From an uncultured archaeon (GTDB lineage: Archaea > Asgardarchaeota > Lokiarchaeia > Sigyniarchaeales > Promethearchaeaceae): a DNA stretch of 23,711 nucleotides. The stretch spans positions 1-23,711 of the forward strand of contig CAYRPF010000053.1 in assembly GCA_964426185.1 (NCBI GenBank), written 5' to 3'. A model generated the notes under the pieces. That model was not told the DNA's origin. It made no database searches and saw nothing but the letters and a program-made list of their open reading frames with translations. Numbering within the stretch: the first letter of the stretch is position 1; each line of letters begins with the position of its first letter. Position numbers and translations under genes: made by a program. Shown here piece by piece: positions 3,773-19,622 of this stretch.

Positions 3773-3982
3773 TTAAAGCAATTCTAACGCCAATTTAATA
3801 TCGTCAGCAATTAATTTCTTACGACCACTATGACGAGTCATTTCCAAAGCTTTATTGGTGATCTTCTTCGCTTCTTTTTCTAAAAATTCGATCATACGAT
3901 CGACGGCATCCTTTGAGACCATTTCAGCACCGCTTTCTTTCATTAATTCTCGAATGGGTGACCATGCAAATATTTTTGCCAT
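3773..3982 (-). CDS. Archaeal histone (HMf/HTk-type), copy 2
   Basis: 69 aa histone fold: 'SPIRELMKESGAEMVSKDA...TRHSGRKKLIADDIKLA'. No tails; purine-rich RBS upstream. Confidence 0.95.
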   Translation of the reverse strand: MAKIFAWSPIRELMKESGAEMVSKDAVDRMIEFLEKEAKKITNKALEMTRHSGRKKLIADDIKLALELL

Positions 3983-4008: not shown

Positions 4009-4218
4009 TTATTCCATTAATTCCAAAGCCATTTCCATGTCGGCCTTGGTTAATTTCTTACGACCACTATGACGGGTCATTTCTAAAGCCTTGTTTGTCA
4101 ATGCTTTGGCATATTTTTCCAAGTAGCTGATGAGTTCGTCTACAGCATCCTTGGACACCATTTCTGCGCCTGATTCTTTCATCAATTCTCTTATCGGGCT
4201 CCATGCAAATACTTTCAT
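4009..4218 (-). CDS. Archaeal histone (HMf/HTk-type), copy 1
   Basis: 69 aa close paralog of the downstream histone. GGAGG SD at 4233-4229, 10 nt before the ATG. Confidence 0.95.
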   Translation of the reverse strand: MKVFAWSPIRELMKESGAEMVSKDAVDELISYLEKYAKALTNKALEMTRHSGRKKLTKADMEMALELME

Positions 4219-4573: not shown

Positions 4574-5392
4574 TCAAGCAAAAAACTGATTTATATTCTG
4601 GAAATTGTGTTTTTCTTTAGGCGGATAATACAAGCCAATAATTACCCAAGTTCCGAATTGAGCAGTGGTGCCGACAATGAAGTGTAGGTTTCGCTTTTTC
4701 ATATATTTATCAAACTTTTTAATTAATTTTTCTTCCAATTCATCTGGATCTTTATACTTTCTACTCCAATTGCGATAAGCTTCCAACATTTCCCAATCTA
4801 CACAAATCATATCATGACCATTACAGCGAGTATCATCACACCAGAATTTATAGGAAAAAATCTTTTCAATTTGATCTGGGATTATCATTTTTTTACCATT
4901 GAGATTTTTTTGGATTGTTTTTGATTTGATCACTTCTAACTCATTTATTCTCTTTCGCAGCTGAAATTTGAATTTCTTAGGCTTTATAATTCCGAGGGAT
5001 GTACTATATTTGGATTGGAGTTCTTTTAATTCTTCTATTGATTTATTCAATAATGGAGCTATTAATTTATTTCTTTGCTCCCAAATTTTCTTCTTTTGAT
5101 GATTAGAGGTTCCTATTTTTGCTAGCGAGTCATCTAGAAGTTTAATCGATTTTTCTTTTATCTTAAAGCTCTCTTTACGAAATATTTTTTCCCTTGCTTT
5201 GGATACCTCGCTTTCAATTAAATTCCATTTCTTTAATACCTCTCGATTTAAGGAATAGTAGTTAAGATCAATTGGATATATCCTTATCCATTTTCCATCA
5301 GTTGTGATACCTGCCGAACAAATGGAAGATCCATATTTTTTACTCTTTTCAGGATATGCTTTAACTAATATGTATATTTTTTTTTGCACCAT
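4574..5392 (-). CDS. Conserved partner of DUF488 proteins (possible OB-fold nucleic-acid-binding protein, Cys/His cluster)
   Basis: N-terminal 'ILVKAYPEKSKKYGSSICSAGITTDGKWIRIYPI', 'SLGIIKP', 'YKFWCDDTRCNGHDMICVDWE' and 'FIVGT..W.IIGLYYPP'. Translationally coupled (TAATG) to the DUF488 gene. Confidence 0.6.
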   Translation of the reverse strand: MVQKKIYILVKAYPEKSKKYGSSICSAGITTDGKWIRIYPIDLNYYSLNREVLKKWNLIESEVSKAREKIFRKESFKIKEKSIKLLDDSLAKIGTSNHQKKKIWEQRNKLIAPLLNKSIEELKELQSKYSTSLGIIKPKKFKFQLRKRINELEVIKSKTIQKNLNGKKMIIPDQIEKIFSYKFWCDDTRCNGHDMICVDWEMLEAYRNWSRKYKDPDELEEKLIKKFDKYMKKRNLHFIVGTTAQFGTWVIIGLYYPPKEKHNFQNINQFFA

Positions 5393-12163: not shown

Positions 12164-13288
12164 ATGGGATTCCTAAACTATTCAGTATATGAACCAATAG
12201 AAAAGGAGATTCCCGTTGTTATTATTCTTTACTGTATTATTATCATTCAAGTCTTACTTCTTACCCTTTTTCTGATTTTTCGATGGCATAATCGGAGAGT
12301 TTTAGCCATACGTTATCTTTCTTGGAGTTTTTGTTCATACGTACTTGCTTTTTCTTGTTTTCTAGTTTCTGCTTTGGAAGGCCTTGTTACTGGGTATAAA
12401 ATGCAAATTTACCGATATTTCATGGGATTTGGTTATTTTTTCTTCATATTGGGCCACATTCTTTTTATCTTGTTTTCAAAGGAGATATTTTCTCTTGAAT
12501 GGAAAAATGTGCAAATATATATTATTATCGGAGGAATTGTTTCCATATCAGTAGTTCTACCTCAAAACTACTATGGTGTACCAACAGGAAGTGAAGGTCC
12601 TGACAACATCCGATTCTATTCTTCTCTCGCTATGTTAATATTTTCTTTGTTTCTCTTTGGGCGGATAGCTTTACGTACATTTCAAGTTTACAGAAAAATG
12701 ACTTTAAAATATGCGCGATATGGATTTCTCGGATTTTTCATAGGTGAAATTGCTATGATTTTCGTATTTCTTTTTATTTTAGCAGATTTTCTCTATTGGG
12801 AATTTAATCTTTTATCTGGTTACACTATATTCTACTATTTTGCTGTAATTTCAGGAATAGTAAGTATTGGAGGATTTTTTTTAGGAATCTACGTTCCACC
12901 AAAGCTGCAAGCACAAGAATTTCGAAAATTAGCTGAAAAAATGTTAGTTGAAGAAAAAAAGGATGAAATGATATCAGTTCAAAACCGAGTAGAGAGCGTT
13001 GATAAAAAAAATCTACCATTGTTTAACAGTCGATCGATCGGTCTTTCACCATTACCAAAAACTACTGGAGAAAAGCCTGCAATCTTAATACAATGCCCTA
13101 GCTGCTTAAATCACCTATATTATGAAATTCCAAAGTCATTAATTCAAGCAAGGGCTCAGAATCAAAAAGATCTGGTATCTATCAAAATTCCAGTAGGATT
13201 AATCTGTAATCATTCATTTTTAGTTTATCTTGACAGAAATTTTTCTATTCGATCATATTCTATGATTGATCTTGAAAATAAAGGATAA
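12164..13288 (+). CDS. Seven-TM membrane protein with C-terminal zinc-binding domain (CxxC...CxH)
   Basis: Seven hydrophobic segments in residues ~17-245, a charged linker, then 'IQCPSC...VSIKIPVGLICNHSFLVYLDRNFSIRSY'. Confidence 0.7.
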   Translation: MGFLNYSVYEPIEKEIPVVIILYCIIIIQVLLLTLFLIFRWHNRRVLAIRYLSWSFCSYVLAFSCFLVSALEGLVTGYKMQIYRYFMGFGYFFFILGHILFILFSKEIFSLEWKNVQIYIIIGGIVSISVVLPQNYYGVPTGSEGPDNIRFYSSLAMLIFSLFLFGRIALRTFQVYRKMTLKYARYGFLGFFIGEIAMIFVFLFILADFLYWEFNLLSGYTIFYYFAVISGIVSIGGFFLGIYVPPKLQAQEFRKLAEKMLVEEKKDEMISVQNRVESVDKKNLPLFNSRSIGLSPLPKTTGEKPAILIQCPSCLNHLYYEIPKSLIQARAQNQKDLVSIKIPVGLICNHSFLVYLDRNFSIRSYSMIDLENKG

Positions 13289-13320: not shown

Positions 13321-14139
13321 ATGACATCAGATTTGATTCAACTTGAATATAATGATAGTGGTGAGATCGCTACTCTCTGGTTAAATCGACCCAAAAAAAT
13401 GAATGCTCTTAACTGGGAAATGTTCTCACTTTTATCAGAACACTTAGATTCACTCAGTACCAATTCAAAGATTCGAGTTATCCTTCTAAAAAGTCGCTCA
13501 ACGGTATTTTCTGCAGGAATTGATGTAAAATTATTGGCAGGTTTCGATCCCGGTGCTCCAAAACTGAATTTAAAGGGGAAATCTTTCCGTTACATGATGC
13601 GAACGAAACTACAAGGGATATTCACTAAGCTGCGCACAATGGAAGTACCAATTATTGCTGTTGTTGATGGAATATGCTATGGTTCCGGCTTTGAGTTAGT
13701 TCTTGCTTGTGATTTTATATACGCTACAGACAATACCATTTTTCAAATGAAAGAAGCTCATTTGGGCATAATTCCAGATTTAGGAGGGGTTACTCGATTG
13801 ATTCATTTGATTAATCCTTCATTTGTTAAGGAGATTTGCATTGCTGCCCGAAAAATAACGGCAGCTGAAGCATATCGAATGGGTTTTGTGAATGATACTG
13901 CCTCTAATATGGAAGAACTTTTAAAGAAGGTTGAAAATCTTCAAAATGCCATTCTTGAAGCAGCGCCTTTAGCGGTAGGTATGGGCAAGCGACTCATTGA
14001 TGAACTTTACGGCGTTCCAGAATTGGTCGGATTGGATAAAGAAGCACACATAAATTCTTTTCTCTTCACCACTAAAGATCACCGAAGAGCGATTGATGCT
14101 TTTTTGGATAAATCCAAGCCAAAGTGGAAGGGCAATTAA
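13321..14139 (+). CDS. Enoyl-CoA hydratase/isomerase (crotonase) family protein
   Basis: Motifs 'LNRPKKMNAL', 'FSAGID', 'GSGFELVLACD', 'EAHLGIIPDLGG' and 'AFLDKSKPKWKG'. Confidence 0.95.
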   Translation: MTSDLIQLEYNDSGEIATLWLNRPKKMNALNWEMFSLLSEHLDSLSTNSKIRVILLKSRSTVFSAGIDVKLLAGFDPGAPKLNLKGKSFRYMMRTKLQGIFTKLRTMEVPIIAVVDGICYGSGFELVLACDFIYATDNTIFQMKEAHLGIIPDLGGVTRLIHLINPSFVKEICIAARKITAAEAYRMGFVNDTASNMEELLKKVENLQNAILEAAPLAVGMGKRLIDELYGVPELVGLDKEAHINSFLFTTKDHRRAIDAFLDKSKPKWKGN

Positions 14140-14143
14140 GAGA
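14045..14143 (+). repeat. 99-bp direct repeat, copy 1 (3' end of the crotonase gene)
   Basis: Matches 15006-15104 at 97/99 nt. Confidence 0.95.
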
Positions 14144-14327
14144 GCAATGTTAGTTGAAGCAAAAAAGCAAGAAAATATATTTCTATCGAGATTCTCCATA
14201 TTACGCAAAATTAGCAATTCAAAAGATTAGAAATATTGGCAAATTTTCCCCATATTAAAAAAAACGACAAAAGTTTCATGATTACTTAATCCTAAGATTT
14301 AAATAAAATGGGAAAAATCCTTAACCA

Positions 14328-14984
14328 ATGAAAAGCCGAAAAAAAATCTTACTGACCATTTTTTGTTTTTTTGCTATTATTTCATTTGTAACCACAACTT
14401 CTGCTAATATTGGTGTATCTGTTGATCAAACCTATCTTTTTCAAGGGAGAATGGATTGGAGAAATGCAGACAAACCACAAATACTCACGTGGGAAACAGA
14501 AATTATAATCACAGCCGTAGAAGAATTGACAATTAATTATACAATAATAAAATCAAACGTCGTTGAAACAGGAGGTTGTGAATCTGGGGCTAAAGAATAT
14601 AACCATACAGATGTAAGAGCGATGATCTATTCAGATGATGCCTTGACTAATGATTCGATATTACACTTCAGATTATCGAACGCTTATCAAATAAACACCT
14701 ATTTTATCAATAAAGATTTTGCCCCGAAAACTCTTGAACATCATGGATCTGATATTTTGATGGGAAATTACACCCTTAAGGTAAGTTATGATTCCAATGG
14801 GGTGATCGAAACTTATAACTGGATTGATACTTCAGAATTTAATCGAAACACTACAATCGAACGAAACACCAATAGCGATGGTTTTACTTTGGATGCCTAT
14901 CCGTTGTTAATAATTGGAGTTGCGATATATATTGGTTTTCTTCTGATTATTAAAAAAAGCAGATATCAGAAACCTACTAACTGA
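14328..14984 (+). CDS. Small secreted, C-terminally anchored surface protein (Loki-CTERM-like)
   Basis: Signal peptide 'MKSRKKILLTIFCFFAIISFVTTTSA'; several N-glycosylation sequons; C-terminal 'LDAYP' + TM + KKSR. Confidence 0.75.
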   Translation: MKSRKKILLTIFCFFAIISFVTTTSANIGVSVDQTYLFQGRMDWRNADKPQILTWETEIIITAVEELTINYTIIKSNVVETGGCESGAKEYNHTDVRAMIYSDDALTNDSILHFRLSNAYQINTYFINKDFAPKTLEHHGSDILMGNYTLKVSYDSNGVIETYNWIDTSEFNRNTTIERNTNSDGFTLDAYPLLIIGVAIYIGFLLIIKKSRYQKPTN

Positions 14985-15005
14985 TAAGAATGTTTGCGTT
15001 TCAAT

Positions 15006-15104
15006 CACACGTAAATTCTTTTCTCTTCACCACTAAAGATCACCGAAGAGCGATTGATGCTTTTTTGGATAAATCCAAGCCAAAGTGGAAGGGTAATTAA
15101 GAGA
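15006..15104 (+). repeat. 99-bp direct repeat, copy 2 (orphan crotonase 3' end including stop codon)
   Basis: Encodes HVNSFLFTTKDHRRAIDAFLDKSKPKWKGN*. Mismatches to copy 1 occur only at 15011 and 15094. Confidence 0.95.
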
Positions 15105-15113
15105 AATTCGAAA

Positions 15114-16676
15114 ATGTGGGTCTATAAGGTAATTCTCGGCATATTGTGGATATTACTAGCACTTTCTTATGCATCTGTTCACTATCGGCAGCGCTACCTT
15201 ATAAAATGGTATGTACCTAAGCATCTCAGAGTGAGCAGCTTAGTACTTTTATCCATCTTTTTTTCTTACACTGGATTAGAAATGTTATGCTATTTTCTAA
15301 CCGATCATTTTCTTTTTTCCTTATTTCTCTATTCAATGGTTCAAATCACTTTAATTTTATTTCCAATCTGGCTGAGAATTAAACTTTACCGACTTTATTA
15401 TGAAAAAAATATGGATATACCTGAAACCCTTAAAAATTGGCATAAATTTGGCCCTTATTTAATTCCTCATCCATCCTATCAAAAATTTTTGTCAATTCTT
15501 TGGTGTAATAGTCAAAAATCAAGATTTGAAATTGGAGAGACGGACGCATCATTGCATACTTTGAAATCTTCTGTAATTGCAACACAGAAAAGAATAAAGC
15601 AAAAGATTCGGAAATTAAACCGAGTGACCATCGATCTTTCTAAATTTCCTCGTGGATTTTATTATAGATTGGATAAATCGCAAGTTACTTTCCATATATC
15701 AACTTCATTAATTGAAAATTTGATTAAACCCAGATCAAAGAATGAATTGAATAACACAATTGAAATCGTTGCAATTAGCGACTTACATGCAGATCTCACT
15801 TCAATCCAAAAGGAAGTAAACATCATCCGCAAATTATGCCCAAAACCTGATTTTATAATAAGCAGTGGCGATAATATTACTAATGCATCAACATGGACTA
15901 GTTGGGGGCGATTAATTGCACCATTTGAAGATTTTTTGGCTTCTCGACCGTTTTTATCTTGTTCTGGCAACCATGATGCAGACAAAATTCGAAAAGTTAA
16001 GAATTGGCAAGTAATATTGCCGTACCACGATTTTTCTTCAAAGAAAGGAACTTCAAATGATCTGTATTATTCTTTAACTTTTGGGCCGCTTAAATTGTTC
16101 TTTATTGATTTATATAATGGAGGGCATAATCCAAGAATTCCCAATTCAAATCAAATGGCTCGTCTTCAGCATGATCTTCAAAATTCTCCCGAAAAAATTA
16201 AGATTTTAATTATGCACAATTCAATTTTTTGCACAGGGGAATTTGGGTGTGACAATGTTTTAGGAGAGATTTTTCTCCCAATTATTGATTCATTTAAAAT
16301 CCCTTTGGTTATCTCAGGTCATGCTCATATATTTGAGGCGTTTTACCGGAAAAATCCCAAAAATAATCTTGAAACACTTTTTCTGGTAAACGGCGGTGGA
16401 GGTGGAAAGCTGGATGATATGATATTAAAACGTAAATCTTTCATTACTGTACCATATCGATGGGAATCAAGAGAACATCGTGCTAAAATACAACCTTATT
16501 TGGAGGGAAATACTTCCAGTGCTTTTAGAAATGATAAGGCTGTCTTAAACTATCAAGAATTTGGCTCTATCACCCATTCTTGGTGTAAAATAAAGCTTAA
16601 CACTTTAAAAATTCACGTAGAAGCCTTCGATTGGGAAGGAACTCTTCTATATCACAAAGATATACCAATAAAATGA
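15114..16676 (+). CDS. Membrane-anchored calcineurin-like metallophosphoesterase (purple acid phosphatase-like)
   Basis: Motifs SDLH, SGDN, GNHD, MHN and SGHAH; three N-terminal TMs. The start is reassigned to ATG15114 because the ORF-track start at 15054 lies inside the duplicated crotonase tail. Confidence 0.85.
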   Translation: MWVYKVILGILWILLALSYASVHYRQRYLIKWYVPKHLRVSSLVLLSIFFSYTGLEMLCYFLTDHFLFSLFLYSMVQITLILFPIWLRIKLYRLYYEKNMDIPETLKNWHKFGPYLIPHPSYQKFLSILWCNSQKSRFEIGETDASLHTLKSSVIATQKRIKQKIRKLNRVTIDLSKFPRGFYYRLDKSQVTFHISTSLIENLIKPRSKNELNNTIEIVAISDLHADLTSIQKEVNIIRKLCPKPDFIISSGDNITNASTWTSWGRLIAPFEDFLASRPFLSCSGNHDADKIRKVKNWQVILPYHDFSSKKGTSNDLYYSLTFGPLKLFFIDLYNGGHNPRIPNSNQMARLQHDLQNSPEKIKILIMHNSIFCTGEFGCDNVLGEIFLPIIDSFKIPLVISGHAHIFEAFYRKNPKNNLETLFLVNGGGGGKLDDMILKRKSFITVPYRWESREHRAKIQPYLEGNTSSAFRNDKAVLNYQEFGSITHSWCKIKLNTLKIHVEAFDWEGTLLYHKDIPIK

Positions 16677-16700: not shown

Positions 16701-17758
16701 TTAAGATAACAAATTTATCCAGTGATCCACCAGATTTAATCTTGTCATTAATTCTTTTCTAATGAACGCTTTTCGATTTCGAGAGAAATTATCAGGTTGA
16801 TATCCTTTCAACGTTAAAAAAATTCTCAGATCTTCAGAATCTAGGTAAATAACTTGGAGTTTTCTTATAAGTTCTTTCTTCAAATAATCAACTAACTGCT
16901 TGGATTTTTTAAGTGAAAATGGCAACTTGATTTCTATCCAAGAAAATGGCCGATTTTTCAATGCAATTTGTTTAACTTTATGCTGAAAAAATATTCTTTT
17001 TCCATTAACGCTTGATAATAACTTTTTATATCCCTTAACAAAAAAAAAACCGCGGGTGAAAGTTGTTTCAATGGGGGAAACTGCTTCGGGACATCCAAGG
17101 TTTTTTTCTTTAATAGATTTAATGCAGAGAGTGGAATACCCGGCACATTTTTCATTTGTCCCGCAATTTCGAAATGTTGCAGTAAAATGTGATATTTTCC
17201 AGTATCATGAAAATCCGGTAAATTTCTCGCAATTTGAGTTATCAACAGTGGATCATCTTGTGTAATATATCTTGTGCCATAGATTGCTACATCTTTGATC
17301 TCAACTTGAGATCCTTTCCGTAACTCAAAATCATACGGTGTAAAACCTTGAAAATGATATTCTCCATAATAAGAATCTAATAAAATGATTAATCCTAAGC
17401 GGTGTAAAACTTTCAACCAAGAATTTCGGGTGTATAATTTAGCTCTGTTGGATTTACGGCGGATATCATGGTTTCCTTCAACTGCGATAATAGGAATGGA
17501 ATTATTTGTTTAGGAATGGAAATTCTGCAGCATCTCCAGAACTTTCTCAAAAGATCCAGGTAAATTATCTCTTGAAGTGAAAATATCACCCCCAAAAATA
17601 ATAAAATCCACCTGTTCAAGTTCAGCCCTCTGTAAAATTTGGCGAAAAGCCTGCAGATAACCCCCTGCCAACTTGGAATTATAGAATTGACCAGTTCCCA
17701 GATGAATATCGCTGGCATGAATGAAAGAAAATGCAGACGAATGCTGCGAAACTTGCAT
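16701..17758 (-). pseudogene. mre11: Disrupted Mre11/SbcD-family nuclease
   Basis: 'FIHASDIHLG' and 'GGDIF', then an in-frame TAA (17512-17510), then 'IAVEGNHD' and 'LLQH' in the same frame. After an A-run near 17101-17107 the frame shifts to 'NLGCPE...RGFFFV...LKNRPF'. The GHxH motif region is missing. Confidence 0.85.
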
Positions 17759-17801: not shown

Positions 17802-19622
17802 TTAGTGATATTTACTTTTTTTCTTCATGGTTTGAACTGCACGCTCAGCCAACTTTACTGCTTCATCCGCCCGCTTTTGCTCTGATTTAAGCTTGTCTTT
17901 CAAATTTTGGGTCTCTACCTTCATACCTGATATTTCTAATTCAAAAGTTTGTATTTTTTCTAGCATTTGGTCCAATTTTGCCTTCATGTTATCCAATAAT
18001 TTGGTTTTTTCTGCCAATTCTACTTTTAAATCATCCCTTTCAGACATTAACTCCGTCATTTTTTCATCGTACATTTGTTCTGGCTTAGGGATCTCTGATG
18101 TATTAGAAGTGGTCATATTTTGCTCAATTTCATTGAGAACTTGATCAATTTCTGAGGCTAACTGGGTTGTTTCTGGAATTTCTGCAAGATTTGATGGAAT
18201 AGATGGAGTAGATAGAATAGATGGGGAATGTTGAGTGGATTGTGTGTATTGAGCAAGTTGGGCTTGCAATCGTTGAATTTCTTGCTGAAGTTCGTAATTT
18301 GTTTGCCGTAAACTGTCAATACGATGATATAATTCCGTAGTTGTAAGCCGCACTCCTTGAAATATTTCAGTAGCTGCGTCTTCCAGAATTTCTTCCGTAT
18401 ATTTCTCTCTAAATTTTGAAATTAAATCGGAACGTGCGATTTTCTCTTCTTTTCCTAATTTTTCTAATATGTTAATCCCCATTCCCCCGTGTATCGTGTA
18501 TCTTTTACGAATTTTCACTTGAATGGGACAGAATGGGGTGATATCTCCTGTAATTATTGCTTCTCCTGGCATTAAATTCTGAATCTCTTCTTCATCGTGT
18601 GAATCTAATCCTTCTGCAGAACTAGTTGTAATTCGTATATCATTAATATCTGTTAATTTATGGATAATCCACGTACCTGCTTGGGCGCGAATTGTAGTAT
18701 CCAATGCTTGAGGTTTTTGAGTGATGACCACCAGATTACATCCAAATTTCCGCCCCTCTTGAGATATCATTTTTACCGTATCCAATGATTTGCTGGCCTT
18801 CTTTCCAGCAAACAAGTGAGCTTCATCTAAGAAAACAAAAACGGGAGGAATTTCACGCATAGTACTTGCTTTATATAAACGCGCTAAAAATTGCTCAATA
18901 ATATTTTCTTGTATTGGAATATCTACTCCTCGTAAGTTTATTGTTATGCATTGACCAGGTAGAATCAATTCCTTCAACTGAATTACTGGAAGATATTTTA
19001 ACGGCAAATCTGCTTGTGGATTATAAGAAATCTCTGCAAATTCAATAATATGTTTTCTAAATGATTTTTCTGGATCATTTTTATTAAAAAAAATTTCAGA
19101 ATCAGGGATATTATTTTCATCAAGTAATTTTAAAGTAGAGTACTCACCATGTCTATCTATAATAATTATCGGAATCTCTTTTTTGAGAAGTTCCTCCAAT
19201 AAAACTCCCACAGTATATGATTTTCCAGAGCCAGATTTGCCTGTAATAAAAACGCGTCCTAATTTTTCTACATTTGGCATAGCACGAAGCCCTGAAATTC
19301 CGAATATTTCTCCTAAGTTTAAGGCCTTTTCTTCAGAAGTGTCCATTCCTATTGCTTTTTGAATTTCTTCAAGGCGCGCTATTCGAATTTTGGAATCAAG
19401 TGGAAAAGGGGTGTGTGGAGGATTTCCAATAATCTTACATTCTCCAAATTGTCCCTTTTCATCATTCCACAAATGAATCGTTGATAAAATAAATGTATTA
19501 GAATCATGGTTAACAGCAATAAATGCTTTTCTGGGGATACTTGTCATTATTTTGAATTTAAACCCAAATGGGGTCGTTTTACCCTCAATATGGCCGATAA
19601 TCTCATCTGATGGTTGATTCAT
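17802..19622 (-). CDS. HerA/FtsK-family (DUF87-type) ATPase with N-terminal HAS-barrel-like region and long C-terminal coiled coil
   Basis: Walker A 'GKSGSGKS', 'IIDRHGEY', Walker B 'VFLDEAHLF' and 'EGRKFG..LVVITQKP'; heptad-rich ~180-aa tail. Confidence 0.88.
   Translation of the reverse strand: MNQPSDEIIGHIEGKTTPFGFKFKIMTSIPRKAFIAVNHDSNTFILSTIHLWNDEKGQFGECKIIGNPPHTPFPLDSKIRIARLEEIQKAIGMDTSEEKALNLGEIFGISGLRAMPNVEKLGRVFITGKSGSGKSYTVGVLLEELLKKEIPIIIIDRHGEYSTLKLLDENNIPDSEIFFNKNDPEKSFRKHIIEFAEISYNPQADLPLKYLPVIQLKELILPGQCITINLRGVDIPIQENIIEQFLARLYKASTMREIPPVFVFLDEAHLFAGKKASKSLDTVKMISQEGRKFGCNLVVITQKPQALDTTIRAQAGTWIIHKLTDINDIRITTSSAEGLDSHDEEEIQNLMPGEAIITGDITPFCPIQVKIRKRYTIHGGMGINILEKLGKEEKIARSDLISKFREKYTEEILEDAATEIFQGVRLTTTELYHRIDSLRQTNYELQQEIQRLQAQLAQYTQSTQHSPSILSTPSIPSNLAEIPETTQLASEIDQVLNEIEQNMTTSNTSEIPKPEQMYDEKMTELMSERDDLKVELAEKTKLLDNMKAKLDQMLEKIQTFELEISGMKVETQNLKDKLKSEQKRADEAVKLAERAVQTMKKKSKYH

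What the first reader, a model, noticed from the sequence alone, without database searches (positions are those of the whole stretch)
14045..15104. Integrase-less single-gene cassette inserted via a 99-bp duplication of a housekeeping gene's 3' end
Seen: the last ~30 codons, stop and 4 downstream nt of the crotonase gene occur twice (14045-14143 and 15006-15104; 97/99 identical, 961 bp apart). Between them lies one gene for a secreted, C-terminally anchored surface protein with its own AT-rich upstream region. Removing one unit would leave the crotonase stop 13 nt before the phosphoesterase ATG (15114), which looks like the ancestral operon junction. Established: integrative elements restore target genes by carrying their 3' end in attP. 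Inference: a ~1-kb circle carrying only a surface-protein gene integrated here with a recombinase supplied in trans, or by RadA-type recombination. This could be a cassette-like route to swapping surface proteins in Asgard archaea. The two mismatches argue against a simple assembly duplication.
Basis: partly seen in the sequence, partly recalled or inferred. Interest (0 to 1): 0.8.

Follow-up and report, generated by a model that had tools for sequence, protein, structure and literature searches.

The report
Recombinase-free surface-gene insertion, duplicated gene end
One surface-protein gene was spliced between two touching genes of a Loki-type Asgard archaeon, leaving a second copy of the upstream gene's last 99 bases; this is a real example of a known but mechanistically unsolved footprint ("insertion with long target duplication") that recurs across this genus.

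Summary
Window 14045-14143 and 15006-15104 are 97/99 identical direct repeats, 961 bp apart. They bracket an 862-nt insert with one gene (218 aa, signal peptide and C-terminal membrane anchor) and its own AT-rich promoter region.

In the closed genome of a congener (Ca. Harpocratesius) the crotonase and phosphoesterase genes overlap (ATGA), so that site is empty. An independent JGI contig repeats the cargo, orphan copy and phosphoesterase linkage base for base.

No recombinase, inverted termini, tRNA or Rfam RNA lies in the window. The genome has one tyrosine and one serine recombinase.

The architecture recurs at six or more other loci of this MAG and at six or more in 0.8 Mb of the congener. 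The repeats are unrelated in sequence and 55-430 nt long, and four further sites are empty in the sister species. Three of six cargo genes here are anchored surface proteins, against 1.4% of ORFs. One site holds unrelated surface-protein cargo in the two species.

This matches "insertion with long target duplication" (Nobusato 2000; Furuta 2010). I favour single-crossover homologous integration of a circularised fragment (about 0.45) over homology-free break repair (about 0.3). A site-specific integrase is unlikely.

This scan has already noted the same footprint on other DNA, in Thorarchaeota, DPANN and CPR genomes.

The parts
13321..14139 (+). Enoyl-CoA hydratase/crotonase gene (gene A), intact, 272 aa
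   Evidence: PF00378 E 5.6e-47; 73% identical ortholog in congener G001
14045..14143 (+). Upstream repeat copy (U): last 31 codons of the crotonase gene, TAA and 4 nt
   Evidence: 97/99 identical to 15006-15104
14144..14327 (+). AT-rich (26.6% GC) upstream region of the cargo gene. TATA-like TTTAAATA at 14298-14305, about 27 nt before the ATG (promoter role inferred)
   Evidence: no other copy in the genome
14328..14984 (+). Cargo gene: 218-aa predicted secreted, beta-rich protein with a C-terminal membrane anchor. No Pfam or NCBIfam family
   Evidence: Only five homologues (71-78% identical), all from Promethearchaeota metagenome contigs. Not found in 160 other class-level genomes searched
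14985..15005 (+). Short 3' flank of the cargo, ending in AATCACAC, which matches AAGCACAC before copy U (possible junction microhomology)
15006..15104 (+). Downstream orphan repeat copy (D). It lies inside an open 37-codon ORF (ATG 14990 to TAA 15099-15101) and is continuous with the native junction to the next gene
   Evidence: The independent JGI contig L084 nt 1-398 is 100% identical to window 14917-15314
15114..16676 (+). Membrane-anchored calcineurin-like phosphoesterase gene (gene B), the ancestral operon partner of the crotonase gene
   Evidence: PF00149 E 6.8e-15; in G001 its ATG overlaps the crotonase stop

Best explanation
About 860 nt carrying one promoter-plus-gene unit for an anchored surface protein was inserted at the crotonase/phosphoesterase junction of this Ca. 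Harpocratesius lineage. No element-encoded recombinase was involved, and 93-99 nt of the target were duplicated ('insertion with long target duplication'). I think the most likely route is homology-driven. A short fragment from a related donor carried the 3' end of its own crotonase gene followed by the cargo. It was circularised, or popped out as a circle from an already occupied chromosome. The host recombination machinery (RadA) then integrated it by a single crossover within the crotonase 3' end (Campbell-type insertion-duplication). That one event rebuilds an intact crotonase gene (copy U) and leaves the resident 3' end (copy D) still joined to the phosphoesterase gene, so neither gene is damaged. 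The direct repeats later allow precise loss or re-circularisation. Shown: the insertion, the duplication, the empty site, the lack of a recombinase, and the recurrence. Inferred: the donor, the circle and the role of RadA.
For: Insertion and duplication. Empty site with ATGA overlap in the closed congener genome. The cargo, D copy and phosphoesterase linkage recurs in an independent JGI contig. No recombinase, transposase, inverted termini, tRNA or Rfam RNA at the locus. The same architecture occurs at C33, C29, C70, C121, C81 and C41 of this MAG and at six or more loci in 0.8 Mb of G001, with local direct repeats far outnumbering inverted ones (26 vs 2; 22 vs 3). Reciprocal empty sites exist for C121, C33, C81 and G001-510694. 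For homology over blind break repair: the repeats differ in sequence and are 55 nt or longer. In 9 of 13 loci the repeat's distal edge lies within -16 to +20 nt of gene A's stop, where donor and recipient homology would end (P about 0.004 at a 30% null). In C121 and G001-510694 the tail after copy U looks like a genuine gene end: 'TEV*' identical to the ortholog, and a stop followed by a T8 run. Diverged D copies carry substitutions but no indels. In E. coli, DNA with one-sided homology mostly integrates by single crossover of a recircularised molecule and leaves 109-950-bp duplications (PMC3240628).
Against: No donor with crotonase-cargo adjacency was found. No circle or empty-site reads could be examined. 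Only two mismatches separate the copies, which also fits a duplication made on the spot. In C121 the D copy is not followed by the conserved tail, so later decay has to be assumed. The clustering at stop codons could also come from breaks at transcription terminators or from selection. DNA uptake by Asgard archaea is undocumented. The origin of the first crotonase-cargo junction remains unexplained.
Confidence: 0.45

Rival explanations
1. Homology-free insertion. A staggered break, or a replication template switch (MMBIR-like), at the end of the crotonase gene captured a foreign gene-sized fragment, and fill-in or re-copying duplicated 93-99 nt of the target.
For: This is the generic reading of the published class (PMC2853133). 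The two copies are nearly identical. There are 5-9-nt matches followed by a mismatch at the proximal repeat edges, and a 3-nt TCT microhomology at the G001 cargo/D junction. The G001 GH2-locus cargo is an 89-92% copy of three other loci of the same genome, with a 301-nt filler, as multi-step template switching would give.
Against: The clustering of distal edges at stop codons and the gene-like tails after copy U are not predicted. No repeat shorter than 55 nt is in the set, though my screen only listed repeats of 35 nt or more. The G001 case is explained just as well by a donor fragment ending 65 nt upstream of the cargo.
Confidence: 0.3
2. Site-specific integration of a small circle whose attP mimics the crotonase 3' end, by a tyrosine or serine recombinase supplied in trans (a CIME-like element).
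For: The architecture mimics attL/attR with target-gene regeneration. The genome does encode one tyrosine recombinase (C35:8371-8895) and one serine recombinase (C149).
Against: Repeats at eight loci share no core sequence and range from 55 to 430 nt. The cargo has no second copy and no conserved backbone. No recombinase lies within the 23.7-kb contig.
Confidence: 0.05
3. Assembly artefact. The chromosome has a plain crotonase-phosphoesterase junction, and the cargo with one repeat copy is a separate circle, a tandem array or another strain's DNA, threaded in by the assembler through an 83-nt exact core (the final k looks like 55).
For: The MAG is SPAdes-like, with 14 or more gaps of the form 55-mer + 100 N + the same 55-mer, and the exact core is longer than k.
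Against: Copy-specific variants flank the core. An independent JGI contig carries cargo 3' end, the G...T copy and the phosphoesterase gene in one piece. The same architecture exists with 82-93% identical repeats, which cannot collapse in a graph, and also in a closed genome.
Confidence: 0.05
4. Remnant of a larger event: a decayed tandem duplication of the whole crotonase gene, or the stump of a bigger integrase-bearing element.
For: At C81 and C70 the orphan copies are longer or internal gene fragments, with deletions in the C81 copy.
Against: Nothing between the copies resembles the crotonase gene or any mobile-element gene. Both flanks are syntenic with G001. The insert is exactly promoter, ORF and about 20 nt.
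Confidence: 0.04

Closest known systems
Insertion with long target duplication (Nobusato et al. 2000, Gene 259:99, not read; Furuta et al. 2010, NAR, PMC2853133, read)
   Same: A gene-sized insert with no transposase or integrase. It is flanked by long, variable direct repeats (46-423 bp in print) that occur once at the empty site of a related genome. The repeats often span a start or stop codon.
   Different: The published cargo is restriction-modification genes in bacteria, mostly naturally competent ones, and no archaeal case survived their screen. Here the host is an Asgard archaeon and the cargo is a surface protein. The footprint recurs many times per genome, and one site carries different cargo in two species.
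Campbell-type insertion-duplication by single crossover of a (re)circularised molecule (E. coli conjugation study, PMC3240628; archaeal 'pop-in/pop-out' genetics, from my own knowledge)
   Same: The product architecture is identical: a duplicated homologous segment of 109-950 bp flanks the foreign DNA, made by host recombination only.
   Different: Those are laboratory constructs. Here it would be a natural event, with an unseen donor and an unseen circle.
Homology-facilitated illegitimate recombination, and displaced 3' ends in Rhs/CDI/T6SS arrays (PMC5361080)
   Same: A conserved upstream gene end serves as the anchor, new downstream cargo is added, and the old 3' piece is pushed downstream.
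   Different: Classic HFIR usually deletes recipient DNA rather than duplicating it (PMC3240628 introduction). Here no toxin or immunity logic is involved.
Integrative elements that regenerate a protein gene's 3' end (phage 21/e14 in E. coli icd, from my own knowledge) and integrase-less CIMEs
   Same: A duplicated gene 3' end brackets the insert, and the target gene stays intact.
   Different: Those depend on a site-specific integrase and a fixed att core. Here the repeats at different loci are unrelated and no integrase is linked.

Membership tests
Insertion with long target duplication | Insert flanked by direct repeats longer than 30 bp | tested here: met
   97/99 nt, 961 bp apart
Insertion with long target duplication | The repeat sequence occurs once at an empty site in a related genome | tested here: met
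   G001 has one crotonase 3' end, overlapping the phosphoesterase start by ATGA. The comparison is between species (73% aa identity), not between strains.
Insertion with long target duplication | No transposase, integrase or other mobile element in or beside the insert; insert under 20 kb | tested here: met
   The 862-nt insert holds one ORF without any family hit. No recombinase was found in any ORF of the 23.7-kb contig.
Insertion with long target duplication | Cargo is a restriction-modification unit (as in the original reports) | tested here: not met
   The cargo is a secreted, anchored protein. I treat this as historical scope rather than a defining feature.
Campbell-type insertion-duplication by homologous recombination | The downstream copy is continuous with native downstream DNA, and the upstream copy completes the gene | tested here: met
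   Copy D plus 9 nt leads into the phosphoesterase ATG, as at the G001 junction. Copy U ends the intact crotonase ORF.
Campbell-type insertion-duplication by homologous recombination | A donor molecule carrying the homologous segment joined to the cargo | tested here: inconclusive
Scans of genome, metagenome and viral contigs found no relative of the cargo.
Campbell-type insertion-duplication by homologous recombination | Circular intermediate, or pop-out product | not testable with these tools
   Needs reads or PCR.
Site-specific integrative element / CIME | A common att core shared by insertions of the family | tested here: not met
   The edges and repeats of eight loci share no motif, and lengths run from 55 to 430 nt.
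Site-specific integrative element / CIME | A cognate integrase in cis or in trans | tested here: inconclusive
   None in the window. One PF00589 hit and one PF00239 hit lie elsewhere in the genome; their specificity is unknown.
IS / MITE / DNA transposon | Terminal inverted repeats and a short fixed-length target duplication | tested here: not met
   No inverted repeat at the insert ends. The duplication is 99 nt.
Integron gene cassette | An attC-type imperfect palindrome at the cassette 3' end, and an IntI with attI nearby | tested here: not met
   Only 21 nt follow the cargo stop, with no palindrome. No integrase on the contig.

The most novel reading that the evidence does not exclude
In Ca. 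Harpocratesius, and perhaps in Asgard archaea more widely, gene ends serve as landing pads for a recombinase-free pop-in/pop-out cycle. Small circles made of one promoter-gene unit plus a copied gene end move between chromosomes by host recombination alone. This would preferentially turn over anchored surface proteins at hot spots such as the GH2-actin junction, where the two sister species carry unrelated cargo between independently bounded duplications.
Probability: 0.2. Interest if true: 0.7.

Novelty: new member of a known kind. Interest (0 to 1): 0.42.

Why it matters
How archaea without obvious mobile-element machinery gain and swap accessory genes is poorly documented, and for Asgard archaea hardly at all. 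This locus is clean: a single gene, an empty site in a closed sister genome, and an independent contig that confirms the arrangement. It is one of about a dozen such scars in two Harpocratesius genomes. The scars are enriched for cell-surface proteins, the class expected to be under pressure from viruses and syntrophic partners. It extends a bacterial footprint known since 2000, whose mechanism is still open, to the archaeal lineage closest to eukaryotes. It also offers natural material (direct repeats of graded age, reciprocal empty sites) for testing whether host homologous recombination alone can mobilise genes. It is not a new kind of element, and this scan has already reported the same footprint in other phyla.

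Tried and rejected
Scans of genome contigs, metagenome contigs and viral contigs with the cargo alignment found no relative.

2. A search for short crotonase C-terminal fragments found nothing.

3. The structure of the cargo: the AlphaFold2 model was too poor for a fold search (mean pLDDT 36). The Atlas gave only unnamed Promethearchaeota clusters.

4. RNA-mediated (TPRT-like) copying. I considered this because four DUF285 gene copies in G001 share a 3' boundary at the oligo-T and differ in 5' extent. I dropped it because the copy includes its TATA box and the other three copies have no flanking duplications.

5. A shared A (copy U) versus G (copy D) mismatch 6-10 nt inside the proximal edge at four loci. 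It is too few cases and was noticed post hoc. In G001 copy U matches the G000 sequence at that position, while in the window it is copy D that matches the closest known ortholog, so there is no consistent polarity.

6. Polarising the two mismatches: the 84% ortholog P0008 has Val, like copy D. One site cannot separate the models.

7. The bacterial promoter/terminator scan does not apply to archaea.

8. C70 and C41 could not be compared with G001 because gene A has no ortholog there.

Full report
**Observation.**
The window is a whole 23.7-kb contig (C53) of a 3.26-Mb, 155-contig MAG. Hits to named proteins and earlier notes place it in Ca. Harpocratesius, a Lokiarchaeial genus. Window 14042-14143 and 15003-15104 are 99/102 identical direct repeats 961 bp apart. 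The two mismatches are A/G at 14050/15011 (Ile/Val) and C/T at 14134/15095 (synonymous). There is no third copy in the genome, and the match has E = 4e-42.

The upstream copy (U) is the end of an intact enoyl-CoA hydratase gene (13321-14139, PF00378), with its TAA and 4 nt beyond. The downstream copy (D) ends 9 nt before the ATG (15114) of a membrane-anchored Metallophos phosphoesterase gene. Between the copies lie three pieces:
- 184 nt of 26.6%-GC DNA with TTTAAATA about 27 nt before the ATG;
- one 218-codon ORF;
- 21 nt of 3' flank.

The ORF product has a hydrophobic N-terminus, a beta-rich body and a C-terminal helix followed by KKSR. It matches no Pfam or NCBIfam family. The insert's GC content (32%) is close to the genome's (34%).

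**Is the arrangement real, and is it an insertion?**
In the closed genome of a congener (G001) the orthologous crotonase (73% identical) and phosphoesterase (52%) genes are adjacent, with stop and start overlapping (ATGA). The HerA and CitMHS genes beyond them are syntenic.

The MAG looks like a k=55 assembly, with many gaps of the form 55-mer + 100 N + the same 55-mer. An 83-nt exact core could in principle be mis-threaded by such an assembler. However, a JGI metagenome contig (L084) is 100% identical to window 14917-15314. It carries the cargo 3' end, copy D with its own two variants, and the phosphoesterase 5' end in one piece. I could not examine reads.

**What is not there.**
None of the 20 ORFs of the contig is a recombinase or transposase. 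The insert has no inverted termini. There is no tRNA and no Rfam RNA. The whole MAG has one PF00589 hit and one PF00239 hit, both on other contigs. Nothing in the insert resembles the crotonase gene or any other place in the genome. This argues against a decayed gene duplication and against a stump of a larger element.

**The cargo's relatives.**
Only five homologues (71-78% identical) turned up among 5.8 billion proteins. All are from Promethearchaeota metagenome contigs. The cargo was not found in the 160 other class-level genomes searched, nor in viral contigs. This suggests, weakly, that the cargo is not crotonase-linked in those genomes.

**The pattern recurs.**
A self-comparison of the MAG gave 26 local direct repeats against 2 inverted ones (35 nt or more, 80% or more, 0.3-8 kb apart). 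Setting aside tandem arrays inside repetitive genes, the same architecture (a gene-end copy, one inserted gene, an orphan copy) appears at these loci:

| Locus | Repeat | Identity | Cargo |
|---|---|---|---|
| C33 | 181 nt | 98% | 844-aa TPR protein |
| C29 | 117 nt | 90% | 418-aa anchored surface protein |
| C70 | 116 nt | 82% | 337-aa anchored surface protein |
| C121 | 72 nt | 92% | 132-aa secreted protein |
| C81 | about 430 nt, with deletions in the orphan copy | 98.7% (157-nt main piece) | 676-aa TPR protein |
| C41 | 233 nt | 99.6% | no ORF |

Three of these were flagged independently by first readers of this scan.

In the first 0.8 Mb of closed G001 there are 22 direct against 3 inverted repeats. 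At least six loci there have the same architecture.

Empty sites in the sister species were verified for C121, C33 (no cargo), C81 and, in the other direction, G001-510694. At that last locus the two flanking genes abut with overlapping stop and start in this MAG.

By a crude hydrophobicity screen, 35 of 2,491 ORFs (1.4%) have a signal-like N-terminus plus a C-terminal anchor. Three of the six cargo genes do (P = 5e-5).

At the GH2-lokiactin junction both species carry a duplication of the GH2 3' end around a surface-protein gene, but three things differ:
- the cargo proteins are unrelated (418 aa versus a 712-aa DUF285/PARCEL protein);
- the repeat edges differ;
- the copies group by genome rather than by position.
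Either this is a hot spot hit twice, or one old event was followed by cargo replacement and gene conversion. A third congener has ordinary genes at this site.

**Mechanism.**
The repeats at eight loci share no motif and span 55-430 nt. That argues strongly against a single site-specific recombinase. Two host-driven routes remain.

(a) Single-crossover integration of a circular or recircularised fragment that carries a copy of gene A's end next to the cargo. Four points favour it:
- In 9 of 13 evaluable loci the distal repeat edge lies within -16 to +20 nt of gene A's stop. That is where homology between a donor and a recipient with different downstream genes would end. The probability is about 0.004 against a generous 30% null.
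- After copy U, C121 reads the conserved 'TEV*' of the ortholog, and G001-510694 reads a stop followed by T8. Both look like real gene ends rather than random insert DNA.
- Diverged orphan copies show about 50 substitutions without indels. This looks more like allelic divergence than decay, though the C81 orphan copy is an exception: it carries deletions.
- In E. coli, exactly this product, with 109-950-bp duplications, is the main outcome for DNA with one-sided homology (PMC3240628).

(b) Homology-free capture at a staggered break, or by template switching. Three points favour it:
- the near identity of the two copies in the window;
- short matches at the proximal edges;
- the G001 GH2-locus cargo is an 89-92% copy of three other loci of the same genome, joined to the orphan copy through a 3-nt microhomology and accompanied by a 301-nt filler.
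A donor fragment ending 65 nt upstream of that gene explains the last point equally well.

I put (a) at about 0.45, (b) at about 0.30, a recombinase supplied in trans at 0.05, an assembly artefact at 0.05, and a decayed larger event at 0.04. Whichever route made it, the result is non-disruptive. Copy U completes the crotonase gene. Copy D keeps the native 5' context of the phosphoesterase gene, and it happens to lie in an open 37-codon frame ending 12 nt before that gene's ATG. That frame may or may not preserve translational coupling, and such a frame could arise by chance. The direct repeats make precise loss or re-circularisation possible.

**Comparison with what is known.**
The footprint is the one named 'insertion with long target duplication'. 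It was described for restriction-modification genes in Helicobacter and later in several bacterial phyla. There the repeats are 46-423 bp, often span start or stop codons, and come with no other mobile element. No archaeal case passed that screen, and the mechanism was left open (PMC2853133).

Other relatives in kind are:
- laboratory insertion-duplication (PMC3240628);
- homology-facilitated illegitimate recombination, and the displaced 3' ends of Rhs/T6SS arrays (PMC5361080);
- integrase-dependent regeneration of gene 3' ends, as with phage 21 in icd (from my own knowledge).

This scan has already followed up the same footprint in Thorarchaeota, DPANN, Saccharibacteria and other CPR genomes. 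One of those notes gave me the lead to the Nobusato and Furuta papers, and I then read Furuta et al. myself.

**Verdict.**
The 'circle plus trans recombinase' mechanism is unproven, and its recombinase half is unlikely. It is a new member of a known kind. Three features add moderate interest: it occurs in an Asgard archaeon, its cargo is enriched for surface proteins, and one site carries different cargo in two species.

Noticed in passing
window 16701-17758 (- strand): Between the phosphoesterase gene and the HerA-like ATPase gene (17802-19622) lie four short consecutive ORFs. The first (17510-17758) is the N-terminus of a Metallophos/Mre11-like nuclease (PF00149, E 9e-7), so this looks like a fragmented Mre11-type gene next to herA. 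G001 has only about 480 nt there, with an unrelated 122-aa ORF.
   Followed up: partly
G000 contigs C2:1232, C5:38842, C19:4242, C23:11719 and at least 10 more: An exact 55-mer, 100 N, then the same 55-mer again. These are scaffold gaps with duplicated k-mer overlaps, an assembly artefact that mimics 155-bp-spaced direct repeats.
   Followed up: yes
L084 (JGI contig Ga0136651_10027125) nt 399-2620: In another metagenome assembly the phosphoesterase gene is followed, from window position 15315 on, by an IS110-family element (505-aa DEDD transposase) and then by DNA identical to C4:83555-83042. The ends of this IS match many contig ends of the MAG, so it probably causes much of the fragmentation. 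Whether this is a real insertion or a chimeric join is unknown.
   Followed up: partly
L036 (G001:374000-385000) and G001 787416-790813, 1057707-1061112, 3130950-3133472: A DUF285/PARCEL-repeat surface-protein gene occurs in four copies that are 89-92% identical. All end at the same oligo-T just after the stop but reach different distances upstream (65, about 350 and about 1,250 nt). Only the GH2-locus copy has flanking duplications. A GH2 gene fragment also lies next to the 1,057-kb copy.
   Followed up: partly
L022 9031-15555 (G001:457030-463554): G001 has 6.7 kb with three genes (344, 1,560 and 274 aa) between the orthologues of window genes 12164-13288 and 13321-14139, which are only 32 nt apart in the window. 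My screen (35 nt or more, 80% or more) found no flanking direct repeat.
   Followed up: no
G000 C81:8264-8564, also C121:52-348, C16, C86, C40, C23, C48, C29: A MITE-like repeat of about 300 nt, present on many contigs, sits inside the C81 insert.
   Followed up: no
window 3780-3976 and 4019-4215: A 198-nt direct repeat (73% identical, 239 bp apart) lies in the ORF-poor stretch between the AIR-carboxylase-domain gene and the 272-aa ORF at 4574-5392.
   Followed up: no
G001:342390-344073: A 55-nt duplication of a gene end (stop plus 4 nt, as in the window) brackets three small genes that look like a toxin-antitoxin module. So the cargo of this footprint is not limited to surface proteins.
   Followed up: partly
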